From positions 5,984,001 to 6,048,000 of the forward strand of contig OY761556.1 in NCBI GenBank assembly GCA_963664705.1: a DNA stretch of 64,000 nucleotides, written 5' to 3'. The position numbers were made by a program, and so were the translations under genes. The DNA is from Acidobacteriota bacterium. Its GTDB lineage: Bacteria; Acidobacteriota; UBA6911. Under the pieces are notes generated by a model. It did no database searches. It worked only from the letters and a program-made list of their open reading frames with translations, and had not been told where the DNA came from. Positions 9,338 to 18,823 of this stretch are shown here, one piece after another. How positions within the stretch are numbered: position 1 is the first letter of the stretch; each line of letters starts with the position of its first letter.

Positions 9338-9706
9338 TTGTATAAAAAGACAGTTTTTGCGGCTTTTACGCTTTTGGTAATTTGGATCGGGTGTGCAATT
9401 GCTGAGGAAAAGCGCCCATTTACGGCGGATCGCCATAAAGCCCTCAATATTGCCTGCGCCGGATGCCATGGAGAGGAAAAACCTCAGAAGGCTGCAACGG
9501 AAGAGTCCTGCATTAAATGTCATCAGACCATAGAGAAGGTTGCGGAAAAGACGACGAGTTTGAAACCGAATCCGCACAAGAATCATCTCACGGAAGGCAG
9601 CGATGTGGCGTGTACGCAGTGCCATGCGAGCCATAAAGCCGATGACATTATCTGCGAGCGATGCCATGCAGGGCTGAAATTTGAGAAGCAGGCAGAAGCC
9701 AAATAG
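9338..9706 (+). CDS. Small periplasmic tetraheme cytochrome c (cytochrome c3-like)
   Basis: Signal peptide and four CxxCH motifs (CAGCH, CIKCH, CTQCH, CERCH) plus NPH; TTG start after AAGGA. Confidence 0.92.
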   Translation: MYKKTVFAAFTLLVIWIGCAIAEEKRPFTADRHKALNIACAGCHGEEKPQKAATEESCIKCHQTIEKVAEKTTSLKPNPHKNHLTEGSDVACTQCHASHKADDIICERCHAGLKFEKQAEAK

Positions 9707-13176: not shown

Positions 13177-14529
13177 ATGAAATCTTCGCCCCCTTCCAAA
13201 ATTGAAATCGGTCAGTTGATCGATGAGCGACGGCTGGCCCCGCTGCAGATACTGGTTATTGTCCTTAGTTTTCTTGTTGTCTGGCTGGATGGATATCACA
13301 TTCAAAGCATGTCTCTCGTGGTGCCGACCCTGGCCAAGGCGTGGTCTGTAAAACCGACAGATTTTAAAATAGTCGTTTCGGCCGCGCTTTTTGGCATCCT
13401 GCTCGGAAGCGCCTTCATTGCCAGCTCGGGAGACCGTCTGGGACGGCGCAAGGTTCTGATCATTTCGATGGTCATTGTCGGGATTTCCTCCATTGTGACC
13501 GGGTATGCCAATGGGATGACACACCTTGTTATCTGGCGGTTCCTGACCGGTCTGGGGTTGGGCGCGAGCATACCAAACGCGACCGCCCTGACTTCCGATT
13601 ATGTTCCATCAAAGAGGCGCGCGGCGCTCCTGACGCTGATGTTTTCGGGCGTCGCGATCGGAGCATTTGCGTCGGGGTACATCGGTGCTCCAATTGTAGA
13701 GCATTGGGGCTGGCGGAGCCTGTTTACCATCGGCGGAATCGTCCCTCTGTTCATGGCTCTTCTGCTGGCGGTTGCAATGCCGGAGTCTCTGAGGCTGATG
13801 CTTGTGCGCACACCGGATGATCCGCGCATAGTGAAAATCCTCGCCCGCATGGCGCCGGATGTCGACCCCAAAACCATCTACGCGAAAAAGCAGGATGTAC
13901 AGCATACGTCTGCCCTCGAACTGTTGAGCAGCACCTATAGAAGAGGAACGCTGCTGCTTTGGTTTGTTTTCTCTGTCAACATGTTCATCCTGTATCTGCT
14001 TGTGAATTGGTTGCCCACGCTTCTTAGCGCTCAGGGCTGGACCGCGGCGCAGGCGATGCGCGGCTCCGTAATGAACCAGCTCGGGGGTGTGCTGGGCGGC
14101 TTCATTCTGTCCTACTATGTGGACAAAGGAAAGACGGTCGTCTCGACCATAACATCGTTGGTTCTTACAGGAATTGCGTTCTGGCTTTTCAGCATTTTGC
14201 CGTCCACGGGACTGTCGTGGTGGATTCTTTTAATGATCGTCGGCGGTGGGATATCCGGGGCGCAGTTTGTGCTCAATGCCCTGGCCGGAGGTTTTTATCC
14301 CCCGGTTATCCGTTCGACAGGAGTGGGCTGGGCTTTTAGTGTCGGGCGCATTGGCGCGGTCCTCAGCGGCGTTGTAGGAGGGAGAATTCTGGAGATGAAC
14401 CTGGCGCCGATGACGCTGTTGAAGATGCTGGTCATTCCGGTTGCGCTGTGTATCGTCGGCGTTCTGATGTTCCGGAATACGTTTCAGCCTGCCGCGATTC
14501 CGGTAAAGACATCAACCGCAGGAAAGTAA
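13177..14529 (+). CDS. MFS aromatic acid:H+ symporter family transporter (PcaK/BenK-like)
   Basis: LDGY in TM1, GDRLGRRK, RFLTGLGLGA, PESLR, YPPVIRSTGVGWAFSVGRIGA. Confidence 0.88.
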   Translation: MKSSPPSKIEIGQLIDERRLAPLQILVIVLSFLVVWLDGYHIQSMSLVVPTLAKAWSVKPTDFKIVVSAALFGILLGSAFIASSGDRLGRRKVLIISMVIVGISSIVTGYANGMTHLVIWRFLTGLGLGASIPNATALTSDYVPSKRRAALLTLMFSGVAIGAFASGYIGAPIVEHWGWRSLFTIGGIVPLFMALLLAVAMPESLRLMLVRTPDDPRIVKILARMAPDVDPKTIYAKKQDVQHTSALELLSSTYRRGTLLLWFVFSVNMFILYLLVNWLPTLLSAQGWTAAQAMRGSVMNQLGGVLGGFILSYYVDKGKTVVSTITSLVLTGIAFWLFSILPSTGLSWWILLMIVGGGISGAQFVLNALAGGFYPPVIRSTGVGWAFSVGRIGAVLSGVVGGRILEMNLAPMTLLKMLVIPVALCIVGVLMFRNTFQPAAIPVKTSTAGK

Positions 14530-14535
14530 AAACAC

Positions 14536-14582
14536 AAACGCCACGAATTTCACAAATTGCTGTGAGATTCGTGGCGTTTTTT
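14536..14582. terminator. Bidirectional hairpin built on the GCCACGAAT repeat
   Basis: aaacgccacgaatttcaca-aattgc-tgtgagattcgtggcgttttt between convergent genes. Confidence 0.75.
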
Positions 14583-14589
14583 GTTTCGG

Positions 14590-15540
14590 TTAGACGGCAG
14601 CCAGGAGAGCTCGTTTTACGAGCGTCTTGGCGATCTGGACTTTGTACTTGGTGGCACTCAACGGCTTGGCGTCTTCAACCGCAGCCGCGCCGGCCGCTTC
14701 GGCATTGGCTTCATTGATGGCCTTGCCCGCGATCGCCGCTTCGGCCTTGACCGCGCGATACGGTTTCGGGGCAACGGCATTCAGAGCAATCCTCGGAGCT
14801 CCTCCCCCCACCATCACGGCACAGTTGACGATCGGGAAATCGATCGACTTGCGGATGGCGAATTTGAGAAAAGCGCTCTTGGCACCGGCCGGAGGGGTCG
14901 GGACCTGGATTTCGGTGATGAATTCGCCGGCAGCGAGAACGGTGTTGCCGGGGAATTTGACATCAAAGAAATTCTCGGCATTGATCTTGCGCGTGTTGGT
15001 CACCACGGAGGCATTCAAAGCAATGAGAGCCGGGGCGACGTCGCTGGGATGAACGGCGATGCACTTGTTGACGTTGCCGAAGATGGAGTGATAGCGGTTG
15101 TCGCCCATCATGGCAAAGCAGGTTGTGCCACCCTTGCGGACGCAAGGGAACCGGTTTTCCGGCTTCCGGAAGTACCAGCAGCGGTGGAGCTGAGCGATGT
15201 TGCCGCCGATGGTGCCCATGTCGCGGACATGGGGCGTGGCGACGCGCAGAGCTGCCTGAGCCAGAGCGGTGTATTTCGCATTGATGTCCTTGTTGGCGGC
15301 GACATCCGCAAGGCGTGTGGCGGCGCCGATTTTCAGGATACCGGCTTCTTCCTTGATGTAATCGAGACCCGGGGTAACGGTCTTGATGTTAATCACGGCT
15401 TCGGGGTACGTGGGAAGGATGTTGTCCTTGAGCCGGCCGATGAGATCGGTGCCCCCGGCAATGATTTCTGTTTTTCCGCCGGCAAGGGCAGTTTTGACCT
15501 CGGCCAGGGTTTTTGCATTCGTATGATTGAAACCTTTCAT
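14590..15540 (-). CDS. FAD-binding subunit of a xanthine dehydrogenase family molybdoenzyme, with 4Fe-4S insertion (PaoB/HcrB-like)
   Basis: AGGTDL, ATPHVRDMGTIGGN, Cys insert RCWYFR..C..C..C, HPSDVAPALIAL, YKVQIAK. Confidence 0.92.
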   Translation of the reverse strand: MKGFNHTNAKTLAEVKTALAGGKTEIIAGGTDLIGRLKDNILPTYPEAVINIKTVTPGLDYIKEEAGILKIGAATRLADVAANKDINAKYTALAQAALRVATPHVRDMGTIGGNIAQLHRCWYFRKPENRFPCVRKGGTTCFAMMGDNRYHSIFGNVNKCIAVHPSDVAPALIALNASVVTNTRKINAENFFDVKFPGNTVLAAGEFITEIQVPTPPAGAKSAFLKFAIRKSIDFPIVNCAVMVGGGAPRIALNAVAPKPYRAVKAEAAIAGKAINEANAEAAGAAAVEDAKPLSATKYKVQIAKTLVKRALLAAV

Positions 15541-15552
15541 GAGTGTCTCCTC

Positions 15553-18087
15553 CTATGCCTTGCCCAGCGCTTTGAGAACTTTATCCGGCGTTGCCGGCGG
15601 ATCGACCCACTTGCCGATCGCATTTTGAATTGCACAAATGACGAGATGAGTGTTGGCCAGTGAATGGCTGATCCCATTGGCGCCGTAGGCTGCATTGCCT
15701 GCGCGCGTTTCCAGTAATTTCATGTCCACCGGGGGCATATCCAGCATGCTGACTTTCTTATAGTCAAACATGTTGGCATTGAGTTTGACGCCGGTAGATT
15801 TATCAAAGAAATAATCTTCCTGAAGCTGGCACCCGGCGCTGAAATCCATTACCTGGTGAATCTGGCTTTCCAGTGAAGTCTGGCGGAGGATCTTTCCGGG
15901 GTCTGCCACCACACCAAACCGGACGATTTCAACTTCGCCGGTTTCTGTGTCAACGGCAACTTCGCACATAGCAACATTCATGGTGTCGAGATACTTTCCC
16001 ATGCCAGTCGCCCAAAGAGCCGTTGGAGGTCTTCCCGAGAAAGTGGCGAACAGGTTGGACTGTCCTACCGCTCTTGCCAGCGGAACCGCTTTGCTCGGAT
16101 CGGATTTGACGTAGACGTTTCCGTCTTTCATATCCAAATCTTCCGGCTTCAATCCCTTGAGTGGACTGGGAGCGGCCGGACCGCCGCCAAAGCCACCAAA
16201 GCCGCCAGCGGCCGGAGGATTGTTGGCATTTTCTATCGCAGCTTCCAGAATCCGCTTCTTCAGAATGTTCGCGCATTCCTTCGTTGCCCAGGCTGAAGCG
16301 GTGGTTCCATCGCTTCCACCACCGACAGGCGTAAAGGTCTCCCGGTAATCGAAGTCGATGCTGATGTCTTCGTAGCGCAGCCCGAGTTCTTCCGCTACAA
16401 CCATTGCGTTCCCTTCCACCGCATAAATGCCCGTGCAGGGACCCTGGGTCGGCATGTGGACCTTGCCGCCCTTGACTTCCAGTTTGCAGTTGTAGCCGGA
16501 GAAAGAGTGGCGCGGGCACATTTGATATCGGAAACTCGCGCCGTGCATTCTTCCATCCGCGAGTTTTTTCGCGCCGGTGGCGTGCCATTTCCAGTTCATC
16601 AGCTTTTTGCCTTCCGCGACGCAGGCTTCATAGCTGGGTACGGGATTTGTGTCCGTTTCACTCGTCGGCCCATGAATGTTCAGGGTCGCGATATCGATCG
16701 GATCTTTGCCCAGTTTTTCAGCAATCAATTGATTTGCCATGGTCAGCGCGTCGAAATTGAACGGACAGTGCTGGCCGCTGGTGTACATCTTTCCCCGGTT
16801 GCTGTTCACGACTTCCATCGTCTGCTTGATATTCAGGCATTTTGTCGTGAAATAGGGGCCGTATCCCTGATCCCCGGAGGTGCCGAGATTGGAAACCGGT
16901 GGGACTCCGGCATCTGAAATGGAGAAATCTTCAATCGCGGTAATGAGGCCGTTATTCTTAAACCCGACCTTCAGGTGCATATAGCGCTGGTTCATATTGA
17001 AGTCGTACATTTCTTTGCGCGTGCACACCATCCGGACCGGTCGCCCCGTTCTTTTGGAAAGCAGCGGCGTGATTTCCTGGGTTTTGCGTGTACCCCAATC
17101 GCAATACTTGCCGCCCTGGAAGAGACCTTCCTGCTTTACTCTGTCCGATGGGAGACCGTACATACCTCCCACGGCGTCTTTTCTCTGAACGGCGCCTTCA
17201 ATATGCAGGCTGAGCTGATCTGTGCTTTGCATCGGATCGCTGTACCAGTAGGCCGCCGATCCGGAAGGATTCGGAATATGGCCGGAGAAAGCGGGCAGCA
17301 TAAGATCGTATTCGATGATCTGATCGGCCTGTTTGAAACCGGCCTCTACATCGCCGCGGTTATTGGTCGCAACCGTGACGTTTCCCTTTCCTCTCGGGTT
17401 GTCCCGGATGACCGGCGCATCGGGCTTTCTTCCTTCCATGATGTCGATGACGTGCGGACGCACTTCCCATTGAGGATTGAGCGCCTTCAGGGCCTCGTCG
17501 CAAGCTTCTTCCGTTTCCGCCACGACGATGACTGCAACTTCATCATCTTCCATATCGGCCACCTGATCGACGTAGGCGCTTTGGGCTCCGCCCATCCCCA
17601 TTCCACCGCCATAGCCACTGCCACCGGCCTGGCTTTTAGGTGCCGGCGCACTGGCATTCGCCTGAGGCGGAGGATTGGTGCCGAGACCTGCAGCTGGAGG
17701 GCCGAAGGCAACGGGGTTGTTGGCCAGGCCGCCGCCTTCGGCCGGTTTTGCCGCTGGTGCAGCCTTGGCAGCCGGCTTAGGTGCGCCGCCGCCCATTCCG
17801 CCCATTCCACCGCGACGACCGAAATTTTTCAGATCGTCATCTTCCCAGGTGAGGATATCCACAACGCCAGGGATTTTTTTGGCTGCGGCGACGTCAACGC
17901 TCTTTACCATTGCATTGGCGTGCGGGCTGCGCAGGAATTTGGCATGAAGCATGTTTGGGAAGACATAGTCGATGCCGAACTTAGCCTGGCCCGTAGCCAG
18001 TGCATAGGACAATTTGCCGGGAAGGTTTGGCTTTCCGACGACCTTAAAATCGGGTCTTTGACCATTAACTCCAGCAAGATCTGCCAT
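15553..18087 (-). CDS. Molybdopterin-binding subunit of a xanthine dehydrogenase family enzyme (divergent)
   Basis: TGQAKFGID, LRSPHANA, GDVEAGFKQAD, GRPVRM..TRKE, EVAVDTETGEV, PATPDKVLKAL; lies between the Fe-S and FAD subunits. Confidence 0.9.
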   Translation of the reverse strand: MADLAGVNGQRPDFKVVGKPNLPGKLSYALATGQAKFGIDYVFPNMLHAKFLRSPHANAMVKSVDVAAAKKIPGVVDILTWEDDDLKNFGRRGGMGGMGGGAPKPAAKAAPAAKPAEGGGLANNPVAFGPPAAGLGTNPPPQANASAPAPKSQAGGSGYGGGMGMGGAQSAYVDQVADMEDDEVAVIVVAETEEACDEALKALNPQWEVRPHVIDIMEGRKPDAPVIRDNPRGKGNVTVATNNRGDVEAGFKQADQIIEYDLMLPAFSGHIPNPSGSAAYWYSDPMQSTDQLSLHIEGAVQRKDAVGGMYGLPSDRVKQEGLFQGGKYCDWGTRKTQEITPLLSKRTGRPVRMVCTRKEMYDFNMNQRYMHLKVGFKNNGLITAIEDFSISDAGVPPVSNLGTSGDQGYGPYFTTKCLNIKQTMEVVNSNRGKMYTSGQHCPFNFDALTMANQLIAEKLGKDPIDIATLNIHGPTSETDTNPVPSYEACVAEGKKLMNWKWHATGAKKLADGRMHGASFRYQMCPRHSFSGYNCKLEVKGGKVHMPTQGPCTGIYAVEGNAMVVAEELGLRYEDISIDFDYRETFTPVGGGSDGTTASAWATKECANILKKRILEAAIENANNPPAAGGFGGFGGGPAAPSPLKGLKPEDLDMKDGNVYVKSDPSKAVPLARAVGQSNLFATFSGRPPTALWATGMGKYLDTMNVAMCEVAVDTETGEVEIVRFGVVADPGKILRQTSLESQIHQVMDFSAGCQLQEDYFFDKSTGVKLNANMFDYKKVSMLDMPPVDMKLLETRAGNAAYGANGISHSLANTHLVICAIQNAIGKWVDPPATPDKVLKALGKA

Positions 18088-18088
18088 A

Positions 18089-18823
18089 TTATGCTCCCCC
18101 CTTCATAACCTGAGCGGCTTCCATAATTGCAGTAGGATGCCGTGGGTAGGTTCCACAGCAGCAGATATTGCCGGCGAGAGCCTGTTTGCAATCATTCTCA
18201 GTCGGGTTGGGATTTTTCTGCAGCAGAGCCTTGGCTGAAACGACGAAGCCCGGAGTGCAGTAGCCGCACTGCATCGCGTCCCACTTGCAGTAGGACTGGA
18301 TGAGGGAGCGCCATTTGGGATCGGCAGCAATTCCTTCGACGGTCTCGATGGATTTGCCCTCGCATTCGACCGCCAGGGTCGAGCAGGAGAGGACGGTTCT
18401 GCCGTCAATGTTCACGGAGCAGGAACCGCATACGCCGCGGTCGCACATCTGCTTGGCTCCGGTAAGACCGAGTTTGAACTGCAGGGTGCGCTGAAGAGTC
18501 CAATGGGGCTCGATGAGAACTTCGTAGTCCTTGCCATTGACTTTGAGCTTGGTGGTAACGGGAAGGACCTGTCCGGGATGCGCCTGGGCGAAATGGGCCT
18601 TGAGGCCGCCGTAGGTGTTGAAATCCTTGGCGCAGATCGGGCACCTGAAATTGGTGATGGTCGAGGGAGCCTCTGCGGCAGCCGCGGCAGCCGCTTCCGT
18701 AGACAGAGTCAGACCTGCTCCCAAAGTGCTGCCGGCGACGACCGCGCCCGCACTCTTGAGAAAATTCCTTCGATTCAGTCCGGTTCCTTCATTGTTATTT
18801 GTAGTGCTGCTTTCATCAGCCAT
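18089..18823 (-). CDS. Tat-exported 2x[2Fe-2S] subunit of a xanthine dehydrogenase family enzyme, with C2H2 zinc finger insert
   Basis: Tat motif NRRNFLK; CDRGVCGSC..C and QCGYCTPG..NICCCG cluster motifs; CPIC..F.....L..H....H; GGAGGAG RBS. Confidence 0.92.
   Translation of the reverse strand: MADESSTTNNNEGTGLNRRNFLKSAGAVVAGSTLGAGLTLSTEAAAAAAAEAPSTITNFRCPICAKDFNTYGGLKAHFAQAHPGQVLPVTTKLKVNGKDYEVLIEPHWTLQRTLQFKLGLTGAKQMCDRGVCGSCSVNIDGRTVLSCSTLAVECEGKSIETVEGIAADPKWRSLIQSYCKWDAMQCGYCTPGFVVSAKALLQKNPNPTENDCKQALAGNICCCGTYPRHPTAIMEAAQVMKGGA

What the first reader, a model, noticed from the sequence alone, without database searches (positions are those of the whole stretch)
15553..18087. Xanthine-dehydrogenase-family Mo subunit with a rewritten active site (Glu to His, new Cys residues)
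By-eye alignment to family motifs gives four substitutions. GAKGxGE becomes GANGISH, placing His (15664-15666) at the catalytic Glu position. GGGFG becomes GGKYCDWG. The RGFG loop becomes SGQHCPF. GQG becomes CTGIY. Known: the Glu is the near-universal base of Mo hydroxylases, and the equivalent loop in aerobic CO dehydrogenase carries the Cu-binding Cys. Inference: an undescribed subfamily with different chemistry or a second metal or Se ligand, co-exported with a 4Fe-4S-containing FAD subunit.
Basis: partly seen in the sequence, partly recalled or inferred. Interest (0 to 1): 0.72.

Follow-up and report, generated by a model that had tools for sequence, protein, structure and literature searches.

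The report
Molybdenum enzyme with rewired active site
A widespread branch of the xanthine-oxidase enzyme family in uncharacterised, mostly anaerobic bacteria has swapped the family's catalytic glutamate for histidine and gained a cysteine predicted to lie beside the metal cofactor, which likely gives it a different molybdenum centre and a reaction not known for this family.

Summary
The 844-aa gene has the xanthine-oxidase (XO) family fold and sits in a small-large-FAD operon. His808 aligns with the catalytic Glu (CoxL E763), and Cys329 replaces the Gly of GGGFG (CoxL G272). The pair is a clade signature: in 384 aligned proteins, 250 of 250 His forms carry the Cys and 130 of 130 Glu forms carry Gly. 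It arose once (99/98 support). The apical-oxo Gln and pterin Arg are also lost; other pterin contacts are kept. The genome holds nine such subunits; relatives occur in Acidobacteriota, Desulfatiglandales and Oscillospiraceae, including the cultured Sporobacter termitidis. Best reading (0.4, inferred): Cys329 binds Mo in place of the sulfido ligand, His808 handles protons, and the chemistry is oxygen-atom transfer. No characterised member was found in PDB, NCBIfam or ten paper searches. The scan earlier noted a different Glu-less XO lineage on other DNA (unchecked).

The parts
18089..18823 (-). Small subunit, 244 aa: Tat-type signal, C2H2-type zinc finger, two [2Fe-2S] domains; keeps the pterin-contacting QCG; usual CRC motif reads CCC
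   Evidence: Pfam Fer2, Fer2_2, TAT_signal, zf-C2H2_4; motifs
18719..18778 (-). Twin-arginine signal region (residues 16-35)
   Evidence: PF10518 above cut-off; aligns with the PaoA leader; tatC in the genome
18578..18649 (-). C2H2-type zinc finger (residues 59-82)
   Evidence: Weak Pfam hit, below cut-off; C61, C64, H77, H82 at least 90% conserved in 22 rows
15553..18087 (-). Large (Moco-binding) subunit, 844 aa, XO-family fold
   Evidence: PF01315, PF02738, PF20256; AF2 pLDDT 87.3; Foldseek TM 0.75 to 4-HBCR; VIA Z 36.7, rmsd 3.2, 708 aligned to CODH
17578..17817 (-). Gly/Ala/Pro-rich insertion (residues 91-170), predicted disordered
   Evidence: pLDDT <50 for residues 94-166; absent from references
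17191..17193 (-). Ala299 at the position of the apical-oxo Gln (CoxL Q240)
   Evidence: Gln in 115 of 130 Glu rows; Ala, Ile, Val or Pro in 230 of 250 His rows. One pairwise alignment put E297 here instead
17092..17115 (-). GGKYCDWG loop; Tyr328 at the pterin-contacting Phe position; Cys329 (17101-17103) at CoxL Gly272
16759..16779 (-). SGQHCPF loop: pterin Arg lost (Gln439 is the likeliest equivalent); His440 and Cys441 are subclade-specific
16507..16515 (-). PRH motif (525-527), likely lining the substrate pocket
   Evidence: R526 in 242 of 250 His rows, 2% of Glu rows; pocket role inferred
16423..16437 (-). CTGIY (551-555) in place of the xMGQG motif; only Gly553 is clade-wide
16309..16311 (-). 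Asp593 of GGGSDG, at CoxL Arg571, next to the phosphate-binding loop
   Evidence: 248 of 250 His rows, 1% of Glu rows; also in the Glu-keeping sister P0132
15862..15864 (-). Gln742, retained pterin-contacting Gln
   Evidence: 247 of 250 His rows, 126 of 130 Glu rows
15664..15666 (-). His808 at the catalytic Glu position (CoxL E763)
14590..15540 (-). FAD subunit, 316 aa, with a PaoB/HcrB-type four-Cys insertion (C121, C133, C141, C160; 15061-15180)
   Evidence: PF00941, PF03450; alignment with PaoB
14536..14579 (.). 19-pair hairpin between the operon and the convergent transporter gene, likely a two-way terminator
13177..14529 (+). Convergent MFS transporter resembling aromatic acid:H+ symporters; link to the enzyme not shown
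   Evidence: TIGR00895 319 bits against a cut-off of 418.55

Best explanation
This is a three-gene xanthine-oxidase-family redox enzyme whose catalytic Glu is replaced by His808 and whose GGGFG Gly is replaced by Cys329; the Cys likely binds molybdenum in place of the family's terminal sulfido ligand, the His likely moves protons at the exchangeable oxygen, and the enzyme would then do oxygen-atom-transfer chemistry on a small organic, possibly aromatic, substrate rather than ordinary C-H hydroxylation. Shown: fold, operon, residue equivalences, the strict Cys/His pairing, its single origin, and retention of the [2Fe-2S]/[4Fe-4S]/FAD motifs. Inferred: that a Mo-pterin is bound; that Cys329 reaches the metal (a sulfite-oxidase-like LMoO2(S-Cys) centre in an XO scaffold); that Asp593 orients His808; that stand-alone large subunits share the small and FAD subunits; that the complex is Tat-exported in Acidobacteriota and NAD(P)H-coupled in the cytoplasm of Firmicutes. 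The substrate class is the weakest step (aromatic, about 0.4).
For: H808 = CoxL E763 and C329 = CoxL G272. 250 of 250 His rows have Cys and 130 of 130 Glu rows have Gly. C329 and H808 are the only Cys or His positions present in 28 of 28 clade representatives and in 0% of Glu rows. The His group is one clade (99/98) whose sister keeps Glu and Gly. The apical-oxo Gln is lost as well, so three positions around the metal changed. C329 directly follows Y328, the equivalent of the pterin-stabilising Phe807 of human AOX1. Of the five pterin-stabilising residues named in PMC6487702 (passages), three are kept (small-subunit Gln, Tyr328, Gln742), as is the GGGS phosphate loop; the mapping to AOX1 numbering is from my recall of the motifs. 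An active CODH lacks the pterin Arg (PMC12202499 passages). The XO core is LMoOS(OH) and the sulfite oxidase core LMoO2(S-Cys), the latter doing oxygen-atom transfer (PMC2997495 passages). moaC, xdhC and MobA/MocA-like genes are in the genome. Electron-transfer subunits lie beside the gene in 40 of 79 loci.
Against: That this Gly's backbone faces the equatorial sulfur is recalled; no paper I could open states it. The perfect Cys/His correlation is one evolutionary event, not 250, and the His rows are redundant (28 clusters at 70% identity, 9 at 50%). xdhC, which serves sulfuration and insertion, is in 37 of 43 host genomes, including two incomplete genomes with a single XO-family match; this fits a retained sulfido equally well. 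No pathway gene recurs next to the operon: other than the small and FAD subunits, no neighbour cluster that I annotated occurs in more than 9 of 79 loci (the 23-locus cluster looks like opposite-strand ORFs over the operon). So the substrate is not indicated. Two pterin contacts and the GG after EGQ are changed, so Moco binding itself is not certain.
Confidence: 0.4

Rival explanations
1. The normal sulfurated LMoOS(OH) cofactor is kept. His808 (with Asp593) replaces Glu as acid/base, and Cys329 is a second-sphere residue (hydrogen bond, transient persulfide or substrate adduct). The enzyme is a hydroxylase or reductive dehydroxylase/desulfurase with altered mechanism.
For: xdhC in 37 of 43 host genomes. 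4-HBCR is the top solved-structure match by profile and by Foldseek. The FAD subunit has the HcrB/PaoB-type cluster motif. Reductive XO-family enzymes exist (Ucdh; 10.1101/2025.01.17.632430 passages).
Against: Ucdh and 4-HBCR keep the Glu. The Gly is invariant in 130 of 130 Glu rows, which suggests no room for a side chain beside an intact sulfido (inference). The oxo-binding Gln is lost too.
Confidence: 0.28
2. Cys329, alone or with His808, binds a second metal (Cu, Fe or Zn) bridged to Mo through sulfur: a CODH-like binuclear site built from a different loop.
For: CODH uses a loop Cys to hold Cu on the bridging sulfido (PMC9310835 passages). Cys and His are typical soft-metal ligands and arose together.
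Against: The CODH Cys388 position is not Cys. The extra nearby Cys and His (H440, C441, C524, C551) are each in about half of the His rows. No dedicated accessory gene recurs in the 79 loci (not every neighbour was annotated).
Confidence: 0.15
3. The large subunit no longer binds a Mo-pterin: Cys329, His808 and Asp593 form a new pterin-free metal or catalytic site in the old cavity, wired to the retained FeS/FAD chain.
For: Many cofactor motifs changed at once: Arg loop, STQ Gln, GQG, INP to xRx, and GG after EGQ to xQ (Q745 in 238 of 250). The small subunit's CRC Arg is absent in 44 of 44 clade-linked copies. A bulky residue beside the Glu blocks Moco in human AOX1.
Against: Tyr328, Gln742, the GGGS loop, DxG and the small-subunit Gln are kept. 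The IRP-type change also occurs in Glu-keeping relatives. Loss of the Arg is tolerated in an active CODH and E. coli XdhD has Gln there.
Confidence: 0.12
4. The site carries a labile selenium ligand, as in nicotinate dehydrogenase.
For: The window's genome has three yqeB matches.
Against: yqeB found in 1 of 20 Firmicutes host genomes and not in S. termitidis (most are incomplete MAGs). TIGR03311 scores 88.6 against a cut-off of 830. No in-frame Sec variant of the Cys motif among 80 fetched of at least 119 pattern matches.
Confidence: 0.05

Closest known systems
4-hydroxybenzoyl-CoA reductase HcrCAB, Thauera aromatica (PDB 1RM6)
   Same: Best profile hit (E 1.4e-33) and best Foldseek hit (TM 0.75); three subunits; FAD subunit with extra cluster cysteines (TIGR03195 is the top model)
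   Different: 19-21% structural identity; 152.8 bits against a cut-off of 994.55; HcrA keeps Glu and GGGFG; the window's small subunit has a Tat signal and a zinc finger
E. coli periplasmic aldehyde oxidoreductase PaoABC (PDB 5G5G)
   Same: Tat leader on the small subunit, four-Cys FAD subunit (35% identity to PaoB), same fold (VIA Z 36.1, rmsd 3.1, 694 aligned)
   Different: 114.6 bits against a cut-off of 1180; PaoC keeps Glu, Gln, Arg and GGGFG; no paoD-like chaperone in the operon; gene order is small-large-FAD
Aerobic Mo/Cu CO dehydrogenase CoxL (PDB 1N61)
   Same: Fold (VIA Z 36.7, rmsd 3.2, 708 aligned); precedent for a catalytic-site Cys in this scaffold
   Different: Its Cys388 is on the Arg loop; here the invariant Cys is at Gly272 and Glu763 is His; no AYRCSFR motif
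Nicotinate dehydrogenase (PDB 3HRD) and Se-dependent Mo hydroxylases
   Same: Best single-sequence PDB hit (E 4.1e-21)
   Different: Split large subunit with GGGFG and RGFG kept; yqeB mostly not found in Firmicutes hosts
Sulfite oxidase family (LMoO2(S-Cys) core)
   Same: Works-like comparison only: one pterin plus a protein Cys ligand and oxygen-atom transfer (PMC2997495 passages), if the best explanation holds
   Different: This protein matches the XO fold over its whole length; the Cys ligand here is predicted, not shown

Membership tests
Xanthine oxidase family (by descent and fold) | Hammerhead plus two Moco-binding domains, XO fold | tested here: met
   PF01315, PF02738, PF20256 above cut-off; Foldseek and VIA matches over residues 10-844
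Xanthine oxidase family (by descent and fold) | Two-[2Fe-2S] subunit and FAD subunit | tested here: met
   Flanking genes; both beside the large subunit in 40 of 79 loci, many on short contigs
Xanthine oxidase family (by descent and fold) | Pterin-contacting residues (Gln113, Gln776, Phe807, Arg921, Gln1203 in human AOX1) | tested here: inconclusive
   Three kept (small-subunit Gln, Tyr328, Gln742), two lost; mapping by recalled motif equivalence
Canonical Mo hydroxylases | Catalytic Glu (CoxL E763, AOX1 E1270) | tested here: not met
   His808; no Glu in residues 801-814
Canonical Mo hydroxylases | Cyanolysable equatorial sulfido ligand, LMoOS(OH) | not testable with these tools
   Definition from PMC3958847 introduction and PMC2997495 passages; needs spectroscopy
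4-hydroxybenzoyl-CoA reductase | TIGR03194/5/3 scores above cut-off | tested here: not met
   152.8/994.55, 130.8/404.55, 140.5/257.8
4-hydroxybenzoyl-CoA reductase | [4Fe-4S] cysteines in the FAD subunit | tested here: met
   C121, C133, C141, C160 align with the PaoB motif; compared with PaoB, not HcrB itself
PaoABC | Tat leader on the small subunit | tested here: met
PaoABC | NF041671 score above cut-off and conserved Glu | tested here: not met
   114.6/1180; His for Glu
Aerobic Mo/Cu CO dehydrogenase | Cu-binding Cys388 in AYRCSFR, and Glu763 | tested here: not met
   G438, Q439 or H440 at that position depending on register; TIGR02416 72.9/991
Aerobic Mo/Cu CO dehydrogenase | coxDEFG accessory genes in the cluster | tested here: inconclusive
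   None among the recurring neighbour clusters that were annotated; genomes were not searched for them
Se-dependent Mo hydroxylases | yqeB-type selenium maturation genes in the host | tested here: inconclusive
   14 of 37 hosts overall, 1 of 20 Firmicutes; mostly incomplete MAGs
Urolithin 9-dehydroxylase (Ucdh/UcdO) | Catalytic Glu741 | tested here: not met
   Glu conserved in that group per PMC13753352 passages; His here. No direct alignment with Ucdh was run
Sulfite oxidase family | Protein Cys thiolate bound to Mo | not testable with these tools
   Predicted only from position and conservation
Sulfite oxidase family | SUOX fold | tested here: inconclusive
   The model matches XO-family chains over its full length; no membership is claimed

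The most novel reading that the evidence does not exclude
A new kind of molybdenum centre: an XO-family scaffold in which a protein cysteine (Cys329) replaces the sulfido ligand that defines the family and His808 replaces the base or binds the metal itself. That would be a sulfite-oxidase-type site evolved independently in the xanthine oxidase fold, deployed as a library of interchangeable catalytic subunits (nine in this genome) on a shared FeS/FAD module.
Probability: 0.35. Interest if true: 0.9.

Novelty: new variant of a known kind. Interest (0 to 1): 0.73.

Why it matters
Molybdoenzyme families are defined by their metal ligands: sulfido for XO, cysteine for sulfite oxidase. The Glu base is described as conserved across the XO family. 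A large natural clade that changes the Glu, the GGGFG Gly and the oxo-binding Gln at once tests directly what the sulfido and the Glu are for, and whether the family boundary is fixed by fold or by a few residues. The clade is expanded in uncultured Acidobacteriota (found in 12 of 12 same-genus genomes, up to 8 matches each). It also occurs in MAGs whose records point to peat, digester, rumen and gut samples, so it probably marks an unrecognised anaerobic carbon reaction. A cultured host with three copies, Sporobacter termitidis DSM 10068, makes it testable now.

Tried and rejected
Artefact or pseudogene: rejected; intact and conserved across 250 rows. Another Glu taking over: E297 aligned with the STQ Gln in one pairwise alignment, but the multiple alignment puts it at the Ser position and it is in fewer than 20 of 28 clade representatives. 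C441, C524 and C551 as a shared metal-binding set: rejected, each is in about half of the rows. Selenocysteine variant of the Cys329 motif: a metagenome pattern scan gave at least 119 matches, 80 fetched; 3 loci had XO-family tblastn hits, the 2 inspected had the pattern out of frame, and the third (L170) was not inspected. xdhC loss as a sign of sulfuration independence: uninformative, since most hosts also encode canonical XO enzymes. Conserved pathway neighbours: none found. Plasmid collection: best match 28.6% identity, no clade member. ESM Atlas: only automatically named XO-family clusters. Expression: no RNA holder listed. Paper searches that returned no description of this clade. Four primary papers or reviews I wanted were not held. 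The library lacks most subscription journals. The ergothioneine-pathway XO homologue mentioned, and the XO-family enone hydratases that I recall, were not compared.
Full report
Observation. The ORF at 15553-18087 (minus strand) encodes 844 aa. It carries GGKYCDWG (325-332), SGQHCPF (437-443), CTGIY (551-555) and GANGISH (802-808); the His808 codon is at 15664-15666. It has the three XO-family Pfam domains and reaches no NCBIfam cut-off: the best of 13 models scores 181.6 against 780. An AlphaFold2 model from 146 rows has mean pLDDT 87.3, with only residues 94-166 below 50. It matches XO-family structures over its length: Foldseek TM 0.75 to 4-HBCR; VIA Z 36.7, rmsd 3.2, 708 aligned to CODH.

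Residue equivalences. I aligned the family to CoxL, PaoC, XdhA and XdhD translated from annotated records. H808 falls on CoxL E763, C329 on G272 and D593 on R571. phmmer independently aligns GANGISH with HcrA GAKEASE. PMC9310835 (passages) calls Glu763 conserved in the XO family and names Cys388 as the Cu ligand. The Arg loop register is less certain. In Glu-type relatives the Arg lies 8 residues after a conserved Asn; in the His clade a Gln lies at 8 (49 rows) or 9 (152 rows, including the query). Gln439 is therefore the likeliest Arg equivalent. In that register, and in the two alternatives, C441 is not CODH Cys388. The STQ Gln is replaced by Ala299 in the multiple alignment.

Conservation. 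Among the query and its 120 best hits, C329 is in 121 of 121 and H808 in 120 of 121. I then pooled the word-based searches, the exhaustive 50%-representative search, the genome's own paralogues and four references. Database proteins under 690 or over 999 residues were mostly dropped, leaving 384 rows. Of these, 250 have His and all have Cys at 329; 130 have Glu and all have Gly; 3 have another residue with Gly; 1 is truncated. The His rows are redundant: 28 clusters at 70% identity, 9 at 50%. C329 and H808 are in 28 of 28 representatives and in no Glu row; D593 and R520 are in 26 of 28. C441 (128 of 250), C524 (125) and C551 (123) are subclade features. The loci were selected by a pattern containing the Cys, so they are not counted as evidence for it.

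Phylogeny. A FastTree tree of 69 rows and an IQ-TREE tree of 26 chosen rows place all His forms on one branch (99/98). The sister pair P0132/P0152 keeps Glu and Gly, and P0132 already has the Asp. So Cys and His arose on one branch; the correlation is one event kept over about 30-40% identity, not many events. The clade lies far from all four characterised references included. HcrA and nicotinate dehydrogenase were not in the trees.

Cofactor. PMC6487702 (passages) lists five pterin-stabilising residues of human AOX1 and the SGGS phosphate loop. By motif equivalence (recalled), the small-subunit Gln (43 of 44), Tyr328 (249 of 250), Gln742 (247 of 250) and the GGGS loop are kept; the apical Gln and the Arg are lost. 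An active CODH has Ala for that Arg (PMC12202499 passages), and E. coli XdhD has Gln. The genome has moaC, two xdhC and four strong MobA/MocA-like matches. A Mo-pterin is therefore likely but not shown.

Context. The operon runs small (18089-18823), large, FAD (14590-15540) and ends at a 19-pair hairpin shared with a convergent transporter that resembles aromatic acid symporters but scores below the cut-off. The small subunit has a Tat-type signal and a C2H2-type finger; the FAD subunit has the four PaoB-type cysteines. PaoABC is exported by a Tat leader on its small subunit (PMC3958847 introduction), so co-export is a reasonable inference, and tatC is present. The genome has 24 XO-family large-subunit hits, 9 of them His-type. 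Two of the 9 lie beside small and FAD genes. There are four near-identical small+FAD pairs, two of them with no large subunit. This suggests shared electron-transfer modules (inference). Close matches were found in 12 of 12 same-genus genomes and 0 of 8 from other families of the class, at E 1e-150.

Other hosts. 311 genome stretches encode relatives; the 79 loci kept come from Acidobacteriota, Desulfatiglandales and related deltaproteobacteria, Oscillospiraceae and other Clostridia, Peptococcaceae and one Leptospirales MAG. Deeper members are labelled Eggerthellales and Thermoleophilia. Both partner genes flank the large subunit in 40 of 79 loci; 31 have neither, many on short contigs. Twin-Arg motifs are in 8 of 28 called small subunits, all from Acidobacteriota or Desulfatiglans loci, and in none of 16 from Firmicutes. 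Of 31 FAD-subunit ORFs, 24 are 776-905 aa long; in the three scanned, a Fer4_20 plus Pyr_redox (GltD-like) module is inserted, and in S. termitidis it sits inside the cluster motif. This implies NAD(P)H coupling in the cytoplasm and shows that the redox chain is in use. No pathway gene recurs. That Sporobacter, Papillibacter and Desulfatiglans degrade aromatic compounds is recalled, not tested; it is the main reason to favour aromatic substrates.

Mechanism. XO-family hydroxylation uses an LMoOS(OH) core; sulfite oxidase family enzymes use LMoO2(S-Cys) for oxygen-atom transfer (PMC2997495 passages). Here the positions that serve the apical oxo (Gln), the equatorial sulfur (Gly; location recalled) and the equatorial hydroxide (Glu) are all changed, and the two gains are a Cys and a His. 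I give 0.40 to Cys329 binding Mo in place of the sulfido with His808 as proton shuttle, 0.28 to a retained sulfido with second-sphere Cys/His, 0.15 to a second metal, 0.12 to loss of the pterin and 0.05 to selenium. Against my reading: no distances were measured; xdhC is in 37 of 43 hosts; and several cofactor motifs are altered enough to leave Moco binding open. Against selenium: yqeB was found in 14 of 37 hosts but 1 of 20 Firmicutes.

Novelty. No clade member is in the PDB (best profile E 1.4e-33) or has a curated NCBIfam model. Ten paper searches found no description of it; I saw listings for these and passages of nine papers, two of which gave nothing useful. No supplements were read; they could hold alignments that include this clade. 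Ucdh keeps its Glu (PMC13753352 passages). Earlier scan notes describe a Glu-to-Gln HcrA-like lineage and a clade with Cys at the CODH position; these are different lineages by their descriptions, and I did not check them. Verdict: a real, conserved, apparently uncharacterised variant of the XO family, not a canonical Mo hydroxylase, with a fair chance of a new metal coordination. Interest 0.73.

Noticed in passing
window 18578-18649 (-): The small subunit carries a C2H2-type zinc finger before the [2Fe-2S] domains, kept in Tat-less Firmicutes copies too; role unknown.
   Followed up: partly
window 18089-18823 (-), residues 221-223: The usual CRC motif of the small subunit reads CIC, CCC or CSC in 44 of 44 clade-linked copies, while the genome's other small subunits that show the motif keep CRC; possible co-adapted interface.
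   Followed up: partly
G000:C1:66964-68668, 3089404-3091079, 4312850-4314491: Three further 91-99% identical DNA copies of the small and FAD genes; two have no large subunit beside them.
   Followed up: partly
L075:8377-10716, L090:3829-6168, L224:11284-13614: FAD subunits with an inserted GltD-like Fer4_20 + Pyr_redox module; in L075 it lies between the third and fourth cluster cysteines.
   Followed up: partly
G000:C1:435949-442649, 4055731-4058166, 6085068-6087536, 6522860-6525316, 2240556-2243276: A second expanded, divergent XO-family group in the same genome that keeps the Glu but has unusual loops (for example CFRHG, WVHHQ).
   Followed up: no
L001:3572-11704: A His-type paralogue lies between two multiheme cytochrome c genes, possible electron partners.
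   Followed up: no
L094:1640-8902: A related small+FAD pair without Tat signal sits in a cluster with corrinoid, URO-D-like and pterin-binding methyltransferase genes and NuoE/F/G-like genes.
   Followed up: no
L006:11257-12300 and L094:14001-15092: About 350-aa proteins with no Pfam match follow small+FAD pairs at two loci.
   Followed up: no
window 9338-9706 (+): Small cytochrome c3-like protein with a signal-like N-terminus, about 5 kb from the operon.
   Followed up: no
P0249, P0206, P0256 and similar rows: Three representatives outside the His clade also lack the Glu (Asp, Ala or Met in the alignment) while keeping the Gly; the alignment there was not checked.
   Followed up: no
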